Assembly: GCF_022846255.1 (NCBI RefSeq)
Contig: NZ_AP025682.1
Source: Escherichia coli
GTDB lineage: Bacteria > Pseudomonadota > Gammaproteobacteria > Enterobacterales > Enterobacteriaceae
DNA: 64,000 nt
Strand: one strand, 5' to 3'
Part shown: positions 27,501 to 39,500 of the stretch, piece by piece
How positions within the stretch are numbered: the stretch's first letter is position 1
Layout of the letters: each line of letters opens with the position of its first letter
Made by a program: the position numbers

Positions 27501-30500
27501 TTCAGTAAATCACCGGCAACGCCGCTGCAGGATAAAACGAACACTGCACATAACGTGAAGGCCAGGGAACGGATACCACAGTTGAACGATAAACAGAGCC
27601 CTGCTCTGCTGAAAAAACACCGTGGCGGCATATGACAAAACGCCAGCGTAAAAACCGTGAGCGTATTAATCGTCTTGTGGAACACTGGCCTGAGTTATTC
27701 AACCGGGAAAAACCCCAACCGCTTAAAGTTGAGATATCTGACGACCTGATACAGGATATCGCCATCAGAGAACTGGCGTTTAGCGCAGGTGCATTACGCG
27801 CGGCAGTAGCGTCTTATGTGCAGTCTCCGCGCTATTACCGTGCGTTAATGGCAGGTGGCGCCCGTTACGACCTGAAGGGGCAACCGTGCGGGGAGGTGAC
27901 ACCACATGAACAGAAAGAGGCAGAGACCCGTTTAATGATGCTGAATGACCGACGAAAAGCCAGAAAGCGTTGATTCACTAAGCTGTAATCAATGTACAGC
28001 GCTGTACCGGACGATGGGTAATGGCGGTCACAACCGGTAACCCCAGAGACAATGTGACTGTTTTTAACGCAACATACTGGCCGGATGTATCACCCCGGGC
28101 GACCTGAAAACACTTTTCCACCCGGCATTGTCCGCCAGCGCTTATCACCTGCCAGGTCTGTTGTAGTAAATCCACCAGTTGTGAACATTCTTCATCAACT
28201 GTCACACTGGCTCGCGGATGGCAAATGCTCGTCTGGCTGAGCAGCAACAGGCATCGCATTGTTGCTCCTCCATGTTGTTCCCGCAACCAGCGTAATACCA
28301 CCGGCGATGATGGACTGGCCGTGTGATTACGCTCAGTAATACGTTCGTGCACCTGTCGATAAAAGGAAGTACAGAATGCATAAATCTGTTGCCCGTTGAT
28401 ATTTCCTTCTGCCGAATGGAGTGTGAAGTGAAATGCCAGCAGATGTGGCCAGTGGTCCACCGCCTGCTGAATAAAACGCCGGATATCTCCCGGCTCTGAA
28501 AGTAAGGCTTCGGTTATTTGCACGGAATACGACTCCTTCAGACTCTGTTGAATTTTGTTAAGCCGGTGCAGACACACGGGAAAATACGCATCAACACCGG
28601 CACGATACGATACAAACACCAGTGACTGGTGATACGAATGGAATGACGAATACGTCAGAAAGGAATACCCCCCGCTGGCTGACAGGAGGGTATCAGCAGG
28701 AAGATGAACGGGAATGTCGCCAGCACCAGGGACAGGGCTGATTTCCACAATACCAGCGCCGGCATTTTGCACATCGCCAGCGTACCGGTATTACAACACG
28801 TTTCATGCAGCAGCTCCTCGTGACTCCTCGATTCGCTGCTGCATCCACTGCTCCACTTCGCTTTTGTACCAGCGGCTGCTGCGACCCAGTTTGATGGGTT
28901 TAGGAAAATGGCCTTCACTGATCAGCTTGTAAAACCATTTGTCAGTCATACCGGTGAAGCTGGTGATGTAGTTCATGTCGATCAGGGGATCGTCGGCACG
29001 CAGCAACACGCTGTCGTGGCTTATTGTTGTCAACATGGTCAGAATGTCCTCTGTGAGATTTATGAAGGTTGGGCAAATGCGGGTGAATCTGCTGAACGGA
29101 GTTTTCAGAGCTGGCCTGCTACGGGATACCAAGGATTACCAGCGAGGCAACGGGCTTCCGGATCGCACACTCCACGGCGATCGCGGGCGAAATCACTGAA
29201 CGCCCATATCAACTCTTTGAGGATGTCTTCGCAGTCCGGTGAACGACTGTCCAGCAGCACATCCCGGGTGATCTGCTTCTGGTACGGTGCCGCTTCATCC
29301 GGTGACGCGAAGCCCAGTACGTTGCTCCAGGCATCCAGAATCAACCGATCCAGTTCAGGGCCATCGAAATGCTCCTGTCTGACGCACAGCACCACGTGGT
29401 ATTCCGGCTTTTCCGGATGACGGGTCAGGAGCCAGCAAAGGTCGCGTCCGGGTTTCGCATTCATCAGCGCACTGACGGTTTCGATAAAATCCATACCAAA
29501 CCAGGTCGTTCTGCTGTTGAAGGTATTGTCATATTCACACGGTAGACGAAGCAGGATCCGCCGTACCCGGGAGCAGGACTGTTCACGCAGCGCACGCTCA
29601 AGAACGCCGATGACTTTGCTCTGATAAGATGGCCAGAAGGGGGCAAGGCTATCGTCGAAATAAGGAATAGCATTCATAAGATATGCTCCGTTATGCGCAG
29701 CCCACAACGCGTCCTGCCCGTGAATGAGCTGACGTGTTATGGCTTGCGGATGAGATTGATGGAATAAGTGAAGAACTGAAGCAGAACGGGAAGATAAGGG
29801 ACAGAACACCGGATACAGGTTCAGGATGAATGATCTCCGTTGACTTCAGTTCACATCATTAATCAATGCGGTAAGTTTTTACCGACGGAGTGTTTCCAGG
29901 AGCGGAGGCTCAGGCCTTAAGCTTCAGAAGTGAGGCTTACGAGGACGCCCTGCAGCAGGACGTTCAGGAACTTCATTGCAGCCGTAGGCACACAGCCCGT
30001 CTTTTTGCTCTTCTTTCGCCAGATAATGCAGGGCACCGCGAATATTATCGATGCTTTCAGGATCGTTGTGGCGCACAGGAATGTTGATGTTGTATGTATA
30101 ATGCGGCTGATATGTACAGCGGTGTGCCGAACCGCTGTTATGCGTAATAGACCGCCAGCATTCCGTAATCCGCTCCGCAAAGGGATATATTTTTTTAACC
30201 CTCTGACGATCGATCCAGAAAACCGCATGCGCATGAAAACCATGATCAACCGTCCATTCAATCACCCAGAAGAAGCCAACGATATTTTCAAATTGTTCCA
30301 CCTGCTCCAGCAGCATACGCAACTGCAATTCAAGCCAGCGATGATCAGGTTGTAAGAAATCAGGCGTATCTTTCCTGTAGAAGAAATCCATGCGTAAGGC
30401 CCGCAGGCAGGAATAGCGTGCCATCATTTGATTGATGTGATTGTCAAGTAAAGCGGTAAAAAACCAGTTTGGTGTGTAAGATTTAGGCATGTTGATGACT

Positions 30501-36500: not shown

Positions 36501-39500
36501 CCGTTCATCACACTTTCGCAATGCAAGAAGAAACCTCATGACAAAAAGAATGACCTTACACGGAAAAGAAAACGTCAGGAATCGTTAATGCCTCAATCTG
36601 ATTGTTATCAAAACATCCAGAAAGTCGTTTAACAGAATCGTCGTAAGCACATCGAAAAAAACGTCAGATTACTTCAGGAAAGTTCGGGTTGATTTAGCGT
36701 AAAGATACTTTTCTCATGCTAACGTCGAAACTCGAAATCTCAGGAAAGGTTAAACGTAACATCAGTAAAATCGAATAGCAGATTGATTGCTGAAGCAGAA
36801 AGGTTTTACAGCAGCATTAAACTGATTTAGTTAACGTAAAGATTTACTAAACTGGATGTGTATAGCAATGCTTAACGAAAACACTTGTAGAAGTGTTTAT
36901 GAAAATACGTGTATAAGACTTACTGAAATGCTTAGTAAAAATACTTAGTAAAATACGTGTATATAGTATCATACCGACATTAGCAACATTCTCAGACACT
37001 CATGCAGACTGAATGTTGATTACCCGTTTTCACATCAGGCATGGTTCTTTACTGACCAAAAAACAAACTGGTTTACTCTTGAATTATTTTCTCTACCTCA
37101 GAAAACATGGTCTCAGGAATCTGCTATGGTTTCATAGTTTCTGTTGTTCCTTTCATAAAAGTTATAAGTCATTGTCATAATCATACGATAATCACTTTAT
37201 GTTAGTTTTTACTGTCACACGCTACTGACTTTTTCAGTCATTGCCAGAAAGGGGCTCTTTTTACTTCCATTTCACCACTCAACAAATGCAAAACTTGTCC
37301 AGTAAAGCGGACCACCTCTTGCTCACAAGCAACGAATCATCTCCAGGAACAGCCCTCAAACATTGCAGAAACAAAAACAACAAAACCCTCATTATCACTG
37401 ATGTTCGGAAAATTTCCCGGAACAAAAAAAACGAAATCAAAATGAGACTCATTATCATGGATGTAGTCAAAAAGACGTTATGGTGGCTTTCAGTTAAATG
37501 GTACTATTTCTCATAAATCCACTTAACTTTTTTTACTGATTCATCCCAGATAACCACTTTATCAGTAAAAAATGAATTATATAGATTGACGAGTTTTTCT
37601 GTTTCAGTTATTCCCAATGTATTATGTATCAGTTGTAGATATGCTTTTATCCAGATTTCTTTACCCTCCCTCCACTTATCTATAAAACTTTCCAGCTTAC
37701 TTAATCGTTGATTTATAAAAAACGAATCAATATCATGAAAAAGCTCAACAAGAAAACAGCACGAGACAATCTCAACAAAAAACAAATTCTCCTTAAAAGT
37801 ATTATAAAACCTTATCAACACATAACGAAAAACACCTCCTGTTAATCTTTCCTGTTCATAAAACAACAAACCAAAAACAGGAGGAAATCTTTTAACCACA
37901 CCACTTTTAATCCAGTAAGGATGATGATTAGTCTTTACTGGCAGTGAATAAAAGAACAATTCGGTTTCTCTTTTCCCACCACAAACAGACAAAACTGTCT
38001 TATAAAGACTTTTTGAATCATTATGTCCTGATACCCCAGACGAATTAGCAGAGTATTTTCTTTTTACTTTTTGCCTTAATGGAGCTGGAAGAATAATAAA
38101 ACGGGATGGCAGATAACAATCGCTTTCAGAAGACCGGCATTCGCACACATGAAGATTTATATTTACATCCGGACAATTCAAAAACCACACAGAATAATTA
38201 TCGCACCGTTTGCAATATGAAACCCATGAATAAATTGCATAAAGTTCAGAAAGCGCATCTAACTCTGCTTTTGAATTAAATGTGATACCGTTTCTTCGAA
38301 TTCTCGTTTCCAGCGTTCTCCATGCCGGGGTTTTCAGTATCTCACGAACTTTTTTATTAAGTTCAGCCAGAGATGGTCCCTGCTCCTGTTTATGTTTCGT
38401 CCTGCTGTTAATGATTTCTCTTTCTTTTACTAATTTCCTCTTTCTTTTTGGTCCTTCTACCTTTCTTGGCAATGCTTCATTTAATCTGTGAACAGGATTT
38501 TGCTCTCTTCTTTTTTTGAGCTCACAAAACCTCTCATAATGTTTTCTGCACAGTCTTTTCTCCACTGCCATTTTTACTGAGAAAACCTGATTGTTACAAT
38601 TTTTTCTGACACATTTGTTTTTACGTCCGGTCATCCTCTCATCTCCTGAAACAGCAGTATGTCATTAGTTCCCGTTCTGAAAAACTGACGCCATACTCCA
38701 TTACACTTTAACAATAATGTCCGTAATTCAGACATTCCATCATTTTTCACGCCCATATTACCTGAATGATAAACCGGATTAGTGTGATCCGGTTCAGTGA
38801 AATCAACAGGATACCGGTATGTCATTCAGCCATTCTTCCCTCTCCGCACAAGTGAAATCATATCTGACGTTTCTTCCTGAAGAAATTCGTCAGAAAATTC
38901 TTGAACATCTCCACAGCGTTATTCATTACGAACCCGTGATTGGCATTATGGGTAAATCCGGCACCGGCAAAAGTAGCCTGTGTAATGCTATTTTTCAGTC
39001 CCATATCTGTGCCACGCATCCCCTGAACGGCTGCACCCGCCAGGCTCATCGTCTTACCCTGCAGATCGGTGAACGCAGAATGACGCTGGTCGATCTGCCC
39101 GGCATTGGAGAGACGCCGCAACATGATCAGGAATACCGGGCGCTTTACCGTCAGTTACTGCCGGAAGTGGATTTGATTATCTGGATCCTGCGGGCAGATG
39201 AACGCGCATATGCCGCCGACATTACCATGCATCAGTTTTTACTGAATGAAGGCGCAGATCCCTCGCGTTTTCTGTTTGTTCTCAGCCATGCCGATCGCGT
39301 GTTTCCTGCTGAAGAATGGAATGCCACAGAAAAATGCCCGTCCCGTCAGCAGGCGCTCTCACTGGCGACGGTGACAGCCCGGGTGGCAACCCTGTTCCCT
39401 TCATCATTTCCGGTACTCTCCGTTGCTGCACCTGTCGGCTGGAACCTTCCGGCGTTTGTGTCGCTGATGATCCACGCACTGCCACCACAGGCAACCAGCG

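What the first reader, a model, noticed from the sequence alone, without database searches (positions are those of the whole stretch)
29822..37240. Three YagK/YfjJ-family genes, two sharing a conserved 65-bp 5' element, each preceded by a roughly 1.2-kb ORF-free purine-skewed tract
Copies at 29105-29809, 29924-30490 and 35258-35989 are all on the minus strand. Copies 1 and 3 share an approximately 80-percent-identical element abutting the start codon (copy 1 has CTG at the homologous ATG position and probably initiates at GTG 29809). Upstream of copies 2 and 3 are 1.2-kb stretches (30500-31690, 36060-37240) with no ORF and strong A/G strand skew, which is unusual and could encode long non-coding RNA, H-NS-bound silencing regions or replication/transfer origins.
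Basis: seen in the sequence. Interest (0 to 1): 0.5.

Follow-up and report, generated by a model that had tools for sequence, protein, structure and literature searches.

The report
Non-coding spacers upstream of island nickase genes
Two ~1.1-kb gene-free, AT-rich stretches in an E. coli pathogenicity island are real and widespread, but they evolve about as fast as neutral DNA, show no sign of a folded RNA or classical origin, and are most likely silenced upstream control regions of small Rep-like nickase genes.

Summary
The three minus-strand ORFs, the shared 5' element and the two ORF-free tracts are real. The tracts are the two longest ORF-free gaps in the 64-kb window. But the genes are ancient paralogs, not copies. 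BLASTP between them finds nothing, and copy 1 joins the YagK/YfjJ family only by profile comparison and lacks the catalytic residues. The skew is an A-over-T skew; a purine skew holds only in tract 1.

Each tract occurs in about 1,600 of 5,426 complete E. coli genomes, always beside its own Gp2-type gene and almost never annotated. Fifty tract-2 homologs diverge as fast as four-fold degenerate sites (0.86 vs 0.90 identity). They show no coding periodicity, no conserved RNA structure, no Rfam match and no iterons, DnaA boxes or IHF sites.

Conservation sits at the promoter-proximal 60-250 nt. There a GTAA-N4-TTAC palindrome precedes all three genes, with a second copy about 800 bp upstream in tract 2. 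The tracts border variable slots that carry defence genes.

Best reading (about 0.4): weakly constrained, probably H-NS-silenced upstream spacers with operator palindromes that control the HUH-nickase/AlpA module. An origin for the nickase remains possible. Interest is modest.

The parts
35990..37100 (.). Tract 2: a conserved non-coding region upstream of copy 3 with a sharp distal boundary. It is A-rich on the + strand (T-rich on the gene-sense strand).
   Evidence: Present in 1,597 of 5,426 E. coli genomes. Mean pairwise identity 0.859 vs 0.895 at four-fold sites of the adjacent gene. Length is retained: the measured portion spans 938-1,096 nt in 50 homologs. No ORF, no period-3 signal and no conserved structure.
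35990..36060 (-). Promoter-proximal 5' element of copy 3: the palindrome, a -10-like GATTAAT, the GGAGAT ribosome-binding site, then the ATG. It is shared with copy 1.
   Evidence: (98% column conservation).
36041..36052 (.). Proximal palindrome GTAAA-AC-TTTAC. It extends to GCGGTAAA-N2-TTTACCGC in some lineages.
   Evidence: Present in 49 of 50 homologs. The motif occurs 6 times in the window against 0.83 expected.
36836..36847 (.). Distal copy of the same palindrome (GTAAA-GA-TTTAC), about 800 bp upstream of the proximal one.
   Evidence: (I5). An exact copy is present in 37 of 50 homologs.
36870..36965 (.). Variable-number short repeats carrying ATAC-GT-GTAT mini-palindromes, and an imperfectly conserved 8-bp hairpin (AAACACTT-GTAG-AAGTGTTT).
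   Evidence: This region spans 177-310 nt among homologs. The hairpin is broken in about half of them without compensation.
35258..35989 (-). Copy 3: a 243-aa YagK/YfjJ ('inovirus Gp2') protein with a Rep-like HUH fold (HYH motif; YLVKYxxK).
32883..34781 (-). Cargo in the variable slot downstream of copy 3: an OLD/GajA/AriA-like ATP-dependent nuclease.
   Evidence: The slot holds other genes in other loci.
31634..32763 (+). IS481-family element (frameshifted transposase). Its end abuts and truncates tract 1.
   Evidence: pseudogene annotation. (the terminal ~57 nt match plasmids and a phage). (sub-threshold psRNA2 hit at 31568-31733). (tract-1 homology in other loci starts at 31635).
30491..31633 (.). 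Tract 1: a non-coding region upstream of copy 2. The distal half (about 31200-31600) is strongly purine-rich on the + strand. It is not homologous to tract 2.
   Evidence: Present in 1,573 genomes. Core pairwise identity 0.872 vs 0.945 at third codon positions of copy 2. The distal boundary is ragged.
30491..30740 (-). Highly conserved promoter-proximal 250 nt of tract 1, with the palindrome GTAAGTTATTAC (30571-30582) at -92.
   Evidence: (column conservation 0.96-0.99; palindrome in 12 of 14 homologs).
29924..30490 (-). Copy 2: a 188-aa YagK/YfjJ-family protein (HAH motif, YLAK).
29825..29890 (-). 5' element of copy 1, homologous to that of copy 3. It has the palindrome GTAAGTTTTTAC (29871-29882) and CTG at the position of copy 3's ATG.
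29105..29680 (-). Copy 1: a 191-aa degenerate YagK/YfjJ paralog (EYH instead of HUH, no catalytic Tyr). The likely start is the ATG at 29680, not GTG 29809.
28803..29039 (-). AlpA-like helix-turn-helix gene that ends the Gp2-type gene string. The Gp2-AlpA pairing is conserved across genera.

Best explanation
The window holds two tandem control modules of a P4-integrase/CP4-type genomic island inserted at tRNA-Phe.
- Each module consists of a long AT-rich non-coding tract followed by a small Rep-like HUH protein gene of the YagK/YfjJ ('Gp2') family. The second module continues into a degenerate paralog and an AlpA-like regulator gene.
- The specific cis-elements sit at the ends of the tracts. 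The promoter-proximal 60-250 nt carry a 12-18-bp palindrome (GCGGTAA-N4-TTACCGC type) just upstream of a -10-like GATTA(A)T and the ribosome-binding site. Tract 2 also has a second copy of the palindrome about 800 bp upstream, plus a variable array of mini-palindromes.
- The roughly 800-bp interior carries no sequence-specific information. I infer that it is a xenogeneic-silencing platform and insulator, bound by H-NS or StpA. It would keep the nickase/AlpA genes off and shield them from transcription of the neighbouring, frequently exchanged defence cargo. An island-encoded DNA-binding protein acting on the palindromes, possibly by looping, would relieve or reinforce the silencing.

Shown: anatomy, distribution, near-neutral evolution, absence of coding and structure signals, the palindromes, synteny, cargo variability.
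Inferred: promoter position, H-NS binding, the insulator role, the identity of the palindrome-binding protein.
For: - Non-coding status: no period-3 signal (S/N 0.9-1.0, against 3.5-17 for the genes scored). Stop-free runs are as in shuffles, and no intact ORF occurs in 64 homologs. Indels are not multiples of three.
- Weak sequence constraint with retention: tract identity 0.859 vs 0.895 at four-fold sites, and 0.872 vs 0.945 for tract 1. Yet length (938-1,096 nt) and base composition (sd <1%) are kept across lineages up to 25% diverged.
- AT-richness: 32-37% GC against 46% for the window.
- Conservation is concentrated next to the genes: 0.98 over 36001-36050 and 0.96-0.99 over 30491-30740.
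- Palindrome: 6 exact sites against 0.83 expected, with 0 of 100 shuffles reaching 6. Four of them lie upstream of copies 1, 2 and 3 and at the distal end of tract 2. The proximal site is in 49 of 50 homologs and the distal one in 37 of 50. The half-sites are kept among paralogs whose proteins BLAST cannot link.
- Position: in Brenneria, Providencia and other enterobacterial contigs, a 450-1,350-nt gap precedes Gp2-AlpA. It lies divergent from the GTPase/DUF932/antirestriction backbone, i.e. a divergent control region.
- The tracts border variable slots holding OLD/GajA-like, ThsB-TIR, LeoBC-like, restriction endonuclease and YfjI genes.
- In most lineages copy 3 has its own downstream terminator-like hairpin, so each module is a separate unit.
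Against: - H-NS binding was not tested. No match to the high-affinity motif TCGWTWAATT was found, and there is no 10-11-bp A-tract phasing.
- The strong strand asymmetry is not explained by a strand-symmetric DNA-binding role. A>=4 runs occur at 16-23 per kb against T>=4 runs at about 5 per kb on the + strand, and the asymmetry is conserved in all homologs.
- No convincing -35 element lies near the palindrome, so the promoter position is a guess. The generic scan found no more promoter-like sites than in shuffles.
- Near-neutral evolution is also what plain junk DNA would show.
- Providencia manages with a 450-nt gap.
Confidence: 0.4

Rival explanations
1. The tracts, or their conserved ends, contain the cis-acting site on which the adjacent HUH protein acts. 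This would be a rolling-circle replication origin or an origin of transfer for the excised island. It would be analogous to the intergenic region upstream of gene II in filamentous phages, the dso upstream of rep in rolling-circle plasmids, or oriT upstream of a relaxase gene.
For: - Gp2-like proteins are reported as core genes of AlpA/integrase islands (PMC12595487).
- oriTs are most often in the first large intergenic region upstream of the relaxase, and many genomic islands carry only an oriT (bioRxiv 10.64898/2026.01.13.699239).
- A conserved 12-18-bp palindrome lies upstream of all three paralogs.
- A hairpin flanked by variable direct repeats lies at the distal end of tract 2.
- The backbone beyond the tract (DUF932, antirestriction, RadC) resembles a conjugative leading region.
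Against: - There are no iterons, enriched k-mers, DnaA or IHF sites.
- No conserved single-strand structure of the sso type was found (SCI 0.21).
- The distal hairpin is disrupted in about half of the homologs without compensatory changes.
- The tracts resemble plasmid or phage sequences only where those carry island or IS fragments.
- The palindrome has a 2-4-nt centre, which suits a dimeric operator better than a nick hairpin.
- About 800 nt of near-neutral interior is not needed for an origin.
- Copy 1 keeps the element although it lacks the catalytic residues.
Confidence: 0.22
2. The tracts are transcribed as long, unstructured RNA. This could be a ~1-kb U-rich leader of the Gp2 mRNA, or an A-rich divergent or antisense transcript. 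It would act as a Rho-dependent attenuator or insulator rather than as a folded RNA.
For: - The strand asymmetry is strong and conserved: T 0.39 vs A 0.24 on the sense strand, sd <1%, with a 4-5-fold excess of A-runs on the + strand.
- Some segments have C/G >= 1.6 and little structure: the + strand RNA of 36081-36740 and the - strand RNA of 31021-31760.
- MFE is slightly weaker than in shuffles.
- No good sigma-70 promoter lies next to the genes.
Against: - No expression data were available.
- The C>G segments lie on opposite strands in the two tracts, so there is no common design.
- Such C/G ratios are common opposite AT-rich genes in this window.
- The most conserved part is only the last 60-250 nt, which suggests a gene-proximal promoter.
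Confidence: 0.15
3. The tracts are non-functional remnants, such as eroded former cargo genes or filler. They persist because they hitch-hike with frequently recombining flanks of the cargo slots.
For: - Divergence equals or exceeds that at four-fold sites.
- Divergence of the tract and of the adjacent gene correlates poorly (r = 0.2), which indicates mosaic recombination.
- The distal boundary of tract 1 is ragged.
- The + strand composition of tract 1 resembles the coding strand of AT-rich cargo genes such as the OLD nuclease.
Against: - No residual coding periodicity, no favoured frame and no intact ORF in any of 64 homologs.
- Length and composition are retained over up to 25% divergence, and in about 1,600 genomes, despite the usual bacterial bias toward deletions.
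- Tract 2 has a sharp, shared distal boundary and a conserved distal palindrome.
Confidence: 0.18

Closest known systems
H-NS-silenced AT-rich upstream regulatory regions of horizontally acquired islands (for example the control regions of LEE1/ler, the SPI-1 regulators, bgl and proU)
   Same: It is AT-rich relative to the host and non-coding, and lies upstream of island control genes. Sequence constraint is low except at specific operator sites. A counter-silencer binding site is plausible.
   Different: Binding was not demonstrated. No high-affinity H-NS motif or A-tract phasing was found. The region is unusually long (about 1.1 kb) and strongly strand-asymmetric.
Intergenic region upstream of gene II of filamentous phages, and the dso/sso regions upstream of rep in rolling-circle plasmids
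   Same: A non-coding region lies directly upstream of a gene for an HUH Rep-like protein of the Gp2/REP_ORF2-G2P kind. A palindrome lies close to the gene, and repeats plus a hairpin lie further upstream.
   Different: - There is no conserved single-strand structure and no conserved nick hairpin.
- There are no iterons with regular spacing.
- The protein has only the ~190-240-aa nuclease/origin-binding domain.
- The element is chromosomal and integrase-borne.
oriT regions of integrative mobilizable elements and 'iOriT' islands (Ares-Arroyo et al., bioRxiv 2026)
   Same: It is the first large intergenic region upstream of a candidate nickase. It is flanked by defence and anti-defence genes, in pathogenicity-island-type elements whose mobility mechanism is unknown.
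   Different: YagK/YfjJ is not a recognised relaxase family. The tracts resemble plasmid sequences only where island fragments occur. The published oriT profiles were not available here.
alpA-yfjI-yfjJ and yagK modules of the cryptic prophages CP4-57 and CP4-6 in E. coli K-12
   Same: The same protein family (YfjJ and YagK are about 33% identical to copy 3), the same association with AlpA and a P4-type integrase, and the same neighbouring defence cargo (abpAB, rnlAB).
   Different: In K-12 the gene order and orientation differ, and the upstream gaps are only about 150-270 nt. yagK has a different palindrome at -42. There is no 1-kb tract.

Membership tests
YagK/YfjJ (Pfam PF11726) / REP_ORF2-G2P HUH Rep-like proteins | Significant match to the family profile | tested here: met
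   Copy 3 matches PF11726 at 1.9e-36 and PF23343 at 1e-8. One other of the six proteins scanned also matches, taken to be copy 2 (RefSeq names). Copy 1 has no direct profile hit and is linked only by hhalign (95%, E 3.4e-8).
YagK/YfjJ (Pfam PF11726) / REP_ORF2-G2P HUH Rep-like proteins | HUH metal-binding motif and catalytic Tyr (YxxK) | tested here: met
   Copy 3 has KHYHVILLL and YLVKYETK. Copy 2 has FHAHAVF and YLAKEEQK. Not met for copy 1, which has PEYHVVL and DFAR at the Tyr position.
YagK/YfjJ (Pfam PF11726) / REP_ORF2-G2P HUH Rep-like proteins | HUH nuclease / origin-binding fold | tested here: met
YagK/YfjJ (Pfam PF11726) / REP_ORF2-G2P HUH Rep-like proteins | Site-specific nicking of single-stranded DNA | not testable with these tools
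   This needs a biochemical assay.
Any described RNA family (Rfam 15) | Covariance-model match at or above the gathering score within the tracts | tested here: not met
   The only nearby hit is psRNA2 at 34 bits (gathering score 65) at 31568-31733, over the end of the IS481-family element.
Structured long non-coding RNA | Thermodynamic stability above background and structure conserved among homologs | tested here: not met
   z-scores are +0.17 to +0.99 on both strands. SCI averages 0.21, with a maximum of 0.65 only over the 5' end of the gene.
Iteron-type (theta) replication origin, or P4 ori/crr | Three or more regularly spaced direct repeats, DnaA boxes, IHF sites, P4 TGTTCACC repeats | tested here: not met
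   Only a variable array of 2-5 short degenerate repeats is present, at 36870-36965.
Rolling-circle origin (dso/sso) or oriT | Conserved inverted repeat or hairpin next to a nick site, close to the nickase gene | tested here: inconclusive
   The proximal palindrome is conserved in 49 of 50 homologs and in all three paralogs. Its geometry suits an operator equally well. The distal hairpin is not conserved. The nick site is unknown.
Rolling-circle origin (dso/sso) or oriT | Similarity to a known oriT or origin family | not tested
   No oriT library was available. blastn against 72,556 plasmids and 50,697 phage records found only island or IS fragments.
H-NS/xenogeneic-silencer-bound region | AT content well above the host average over several hundred bp | tested here: met
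   32.4% and 36.7% GC against 46.3% for the window.
H-NS/xenogeneic-silencer-bound region | High-affinity nucleation motif or intrinsic curvature | tested here: not met
   No TCGWTWAATT site was found. AA/TT power at 10-11.2 bp is no higher than in shuffles.
H-NS/xenogeneic-silencer-bound region | Occupancy by H-NS/StpA in vivo and derepression in hns mutants | not testable with these tools
   This needs ChIP-seq or expression data from a strain that carries the island.

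The most novel reading that the evidence does not exclude
YagK/YfjJ proteins would be a new family of minimal HUH nickases. They would replicate or mobilise CP4-type pathogenicity and defence islands from a cis-acting site in the non-coding tract upstream of their own gene, either the conserved GCGGTAA-N4-TTACCGC palindrome or the distal repeat/hairpin cluster. The unannotated tracts in about 1,600 E. coli genomes would then be the long-sought origins of these islands.
Probability: 0.2. Interest if true: 0.65.

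Novelty: new member of a known kind. Interest (0 to 1): 0.3.

Why it matters
These islands carry adhesins, toxin-antitoxin pairs and anti-phage systems, and they sit in about 30% of complete E. coli genomes. How they are controlled and moved is poorly understood.

Three results here are practical:
- About 1.1 kb of DNA upstream of each Gp2-type gene is truly non-coding and near-neutral.
- The conserved information is confined to short palindromes next to the genes.
- The tracts flank slots where defence genes are swapped.

These results tell annotators not to look for genes or RNA families there. They give experimenters precise targets: the palindromes, the HUH proteins and the AlpA-like regulator. 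If the palindrome proved to be the nick site of a new nickase family, it would explain the mobility of a large class of pathogenicity islands. If not, this is an ordinary silenced intergenic spacer.

Tried and rejected
- Homology between the two tracts: none.
- RfaH ops element: no match better than chance.
- Periodicity and tandem repeats: only a weak 12/24-nt array at 36902-36956.
- Hidden protein coding: rejected by period-3, stop-codon and ORF tests over 64 homologs.
- Terminal inverted repeats that would bound a 'tract + gene' transposable unit: none seen. The region downstream of copy 3 ends in a terminator-like hairpin, not a repeat of the tract end.
- P. aeruginosa AlpA binding element (GGGACG, between -35 and -10): unrelated in sequence, and that AlpA is a larger Q-like protein, so no inference was drawn.
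- Single-protein scan of one genome per species: only 2 loci, because the copy-3 subfamily is nearly confined to E. coli and the next relatives are about 42% identical.
- Plasmid match of tract 1 positions 662-1050: an island fragment next to ireA cut by IS66, not a plasmid function.
- Attempt to inspect the O157 Sakai tellurite island for a link to the published oriT family: I used wrong coordinates and abandoned it.
- Caveat: the high conservation of block 36451-36500 is inflated, because the metagenome loci were retrieved with an exact 20-mer from that block.

Full report
CONTEXT. The window is a mosaic E. coli pathogenicity island next to tRNA-Phe (3386-3461). It has an integrase, an afa-8-type adhesin locus (AfaR sRNA) and isrC. 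The stretch 29000-38000 is 98.4% identical over its full length to the chromosomes of 14 complete E. coli genomes.

RefSeq annotates the region as follows, read along the minus strand:
- a 376-aa hypothetical protein
- a gap with no annotation
- 'inovirus Gp2 family protein' (copy 3)
- 'ATP-dependent nuclease'
- a frameshifted IS481 transposase on the plus strand
- a second gap with no annotation
- 'inovirus-type Gp2 protein' (copy 2)
- a 190-aa 'hypothetical protein' (copy 1)
- a helix-turn-helix regulator of the AlpA type

On the far side of the 376-aa gene the usual CP4-type backbone runs on the plus strand: YeeP-like GTPase, WYL regulator, DUF905, DUF932, antirestriction protein, RadC and the YeeU/CbtA pair.

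THE OBSERVATION.
- Copy 3 is a clear YagK/YfjJ member: Pfam 1.9e-36, plus REP_ORF2-G2P at 1e-8.
- Copy 2 is a member too.
- The three proteins are not detectably similar to each other by BLASTP, so they are not recent copies.
- Copy 1 matches no Pfam, NCBIfam or PHROG profile. Profile-profile comparison links it to the family at 95% probability, E 3.4e-8.
- The family alignment shows the RVDLRxP, KHYHVxLLLNKD (HUH) and YLAKxxTK motifs. Copy 1 has EYH for HUH and no tyrosine at the catalytic position. It is therefore a degenerate paralog.

THE SHARED 5' ELEMENT. The element is real. 29825-29882 aligns with 35990-36052 at 76% identity (E 1e-6), and this is the only secondary match of the tract-2 region in the window. 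Copy 1 has CTG at the position of copy 3's ATG. No copy-1 homolog I examined has ATG there. The reading frame between that point and the ATG at 29680 is broken or variable, even in near-identical genomes. The true start is therefore the RefSeq ATG at 29680, not GTG 29809.

THE TRACTS AS SEQUENCE. They are the two longest ORF-free gaps in the window. Tract 1 proper is 30491-31633. The conserved part of tract 2 is 35990 to about 37100. The next 400 nt differ with the neighbouring cargo.

The 'purine skew' is really an A-over-T skew.
- Tract 1: A .40, T .28, G .185, C .14.
- Tract 2: A .38, T .255, C .205, G .16, so its purine fraction is only .54.
- Runs of four or more A are 3-5 times as frequent as runs of T on the plus strand.
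- The two tracts share no sequence similarity.

DISTRIBUTION AND EVOLUTION. Tract 2 is found in 1,597 and tract 1 in 1,573 of 5,426 complete E. coli genomes. Almost none of these places carries an annotated feature. Each tract is always next to its own gene type.

The copy-3 subfamily is practically confined to E. coli. The next relatives, in Brenneria and Providencia, are about 42% identical. An exact 20-mer scan of metagenome contigs gave 65 loci. Together with genome loci these gave 50 distinct tract-2-plus-gene sequences. Mean pairwise identities were:

| Region | Identity |
|---|---|
| Tract 2 | 0.859 |
| Proximal 110 nt | 0.894 |
| Copy 3 gene | 0.930 |
| Four-fold degenerate sites of the gene | 0.895 |

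Divergence of the tract correlates poorly with divergence of the gene (r = 0.2), which points to mosaic recombination. Tract 1 behaves the same way: 0.872 against 0.945 at third codon positions.

So the tracts evolve at or above the neutral rate. Yet the measured portion stays within 938-1,096 nt, and base composition varies by less than 1% among lineages up to 25% diverged. Only the gene-proximal ends are well conserved: 0.98 over 36001-36050 and 0.96-0.99 over 30491-30740. The apparent conservation of 36451-36500 is an artefact of the retrieval pattern.

WHAT THE TRACTS ARE NOT.
- Coding or recently coding DNA. There is no period-3 signal (S/N about 1, against 3.5-17 for the genes scored). 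No frame is poor in stops, and the longest open stretch equals that of shuffles. No intact ORF occurs in any of 64 homologs, and indels are not multiples of three.
- A described or structured RNA. There is no Rfam match. MFE z-scores are +0.2 to +1.0 on both strands. The structure conservation index averages 0.21 over 52 windows on both strands; only the window covering the ribosome-binding site reaches 0.65.
- An iteron-type origin. There are no DnaA boxes, IHF sites, P4 repeats or over-represented k-mers. One 8-bp hairpin at 36880-36900 is intact in about half of the homologs, and the variants are not compensatory.
- Plasmid- or phage-derived DNA. Only island or IS fragments match.
- Curved DNA. 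There is no A-tract phasing and no H-NS high-affinity motif.

WHAT IS THERE. A palindrome GTAA-N4-TTAC occurs six times in the window against 0.83 expected. Four of the six sites are:
- upstream of copy 1 (29871)
- upstream of copy 2 (30571)
- upstream of copy 3 (36041)
- at the distal end of tract 2 (36836)

In some lineages it extends to a perfect GCGGTAAA-GT-TTTACCGC. The proximal site is present in 49 of 50 tract-2 homologs and the distal one in 37 of 50. It is followed after 6-12 nt by a -10-like GATTA(A)T and then by the ribosome-binding site. This places it between the -35 and -10 positions of a putative gene-proximal promoter that lacks a good -35. Half-sites are conserved among paralogs whose proteins have diverged beyond BLAST. 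This argues for one common DNA-binding factor.

At 36870-36965 there is a variable-number array of ATAC-GT-GTAT mini-palindromes. The region around it (36820-37010) spans 177-310 nt among homologs.

SURROUNDINGS.
- Gp2 followed by AlpA, divergent from the GTPase/DUF932/antirestriction backbone, is conserved in Brenneria, Providencia and other enterobacterial contigs. The gaps there are 450-1,350 nt.
- In K-12 the relatives yfjJ and yagK have short upstream gaps and a different order.
- In E. coli the arrangement GTPase / cargo A / tract 2 / copy 3 / cargo B / tract 1 / copy 2 / copy 1 / AlpA recurs.
- Cargo B varies. It holds an OLD/GajA/AriA-like nuclease here, and elsewhere a ThsB-type TIR protein (3.6e-128), a LeoBC-like GTPase, a restriction endonuclease or YfjI.
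- In most lineages copy 3 is followed by a terminator-like hairpin, which the cargo insertion has removed in this window.

The tracts are thus the conserved flanks of defence-gene slots.

INTERPRETATION. I favour, at about 0.4, long weakly constrained AT-rich upstream spacers of the HUH/AlpA control modules. They are probably bound by H-NS-type silencers and act as insulators against cargo transcription. Regulation would run through the palindromes, possibly with looping in tract 2. The anatomy is shown. Silencer binding, promoter position and the identity of the palindrome-binding protein are inferred.

Three rivals remain.
- Origin or oriT for the adjacent nickase (0.22). It is supported by the Rep-like fold. 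It also fits published observations that Gp2-like proteins are core genes of AlpA/integrase islands (PMC12595487), and that oriTs usually lie in the first large intergenic region upstream of the nickase (bioRxiv 10.64898/2026.01.13.699239). It is weakened by the lack of any conserved hairpin, iteron or single-strand structure.
- A long unstructured transcript acting as a Rho-dependent attenuator (0.15). It would explain the strand asymmetry, but the C-over-G segments lie on opposite strands in the two tracts.
- Hitch-hiking junk (0.18). It fits the neutral rate, but not the retention of length, composition, boundary and distal palindrome.

NOVELTY. I found no paper describing these tracts. They appear to be an undescribed but unsurprising example of a known kind: a long AT-rich regulatory spacer in a horizontally acquired island. 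Interest is modest unless the nickase-origin reading proves true.

Noticed in passing
window 27632-27973 (+): A 113-aa FinO/ProQ-domain protein is encoded just beyond the AlpA end of the module (Pfam ProQ 2.1e-24; NCBIfam FinO 8e-18). An 893-nt ORF-free gap (26739-27631) precedes it. Its RNA partner is unknown.
   Followed up: no
window 32883-34781 (-), and the equivalent slot in L003, L005, L006, L043, L065: The slot between copy 3 and tract 1 is a variable cargo site. It holds an OLD/GajA/AriA-like nuclease here. Elsewhere it holds a ThsB-type TIR protein, a LeoBC-like GTPase pair, a restriction endonuclease, YfjI, or a TonB-dependent receptor with an IS. It looks like a defence hotspot.
   Followed up: partly
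window 37504-38634 (-); L003 6293-7516; L004 6639-8374: The slot between tract 2 and the YeeP-like GTPase gene holds different uncharacterised genes in different strains (376 aa here; 407 aa; 262 + 316 aa). None matches Pfam, NCBIfam, PHROGs or PADLOC. These are possible unknown defence genes.
   Followed up: partly
window 31568-31733 (-): A sub-threshold Rfam psRNA2 match (34 bits, gathering score 65) lies over the end of the IS481-family element. The same ~57-70 nt occur in Klebsiella, Erwinia, Serratia and other enterobacterial plasmids and in phage RCS47. psRNA2-like hits here are probably IS-end sequence.
   Followed up: partly
window 35258-35989 (-), residues ~150-192 of copy 3: The E. 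coli 243-aa subfamily has a ~45-residue low-confidence insertion (pLDDT <55) between the HUH region and the Tyr motif. It is absent from the 189-214-aa relatives and from YfjJ/YagK.
   Followed up: no
window 35150-35257, compared with L002, L006, L043, L044: Most lineages have a terminator-like hairpin just downstream of copy 3 (AAGGGCG-N8-CGCCCTT followed by a T-rich run). In this window its 3' arm is missing at the junction with the nuclease cargo.
   Followed up: partly
L013 (plasmid NZ_CP075698.1) 6001-6325 and seven similar E. coli plasmid records: A 325-390-nt fragment of tract 1 (73% identity) sits on E. coli plasmids (the one examined is IncF) between an IS66 copy and the ireA siderophore receptor gene. 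This shows island fragments moving onto plasmids.
   Followed up: partly
window 38811-38820: A mini-palindrome ATACCGGTAT of the ATAC-N2-GTAT type seen in tract 2 overlaps the start codon of the YeeP-like GTPase gene. The motif occurs 5 times in the window against 0.74 expected.
   Followed up: no
window 5974-6230 (+) and 12410-12532 (-): Full-length Rfam matches to the AfaR sRNA (270 bits) and the isrC Hfq-binding RNA (135 bits) lie elsewhere in the island.
   Followed up: no
L010 (GCA_019431125.1) 1935-3932: In one genome tract 2 is interrupted by about 1.2 kb of inserted DNA and the Gp2 gene is altered at its 5' end. Together with L026, which has lost ~280 nt around the promoter, this is one of two natural disruptions seen that could be used to test tract function.
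   Followed up: no
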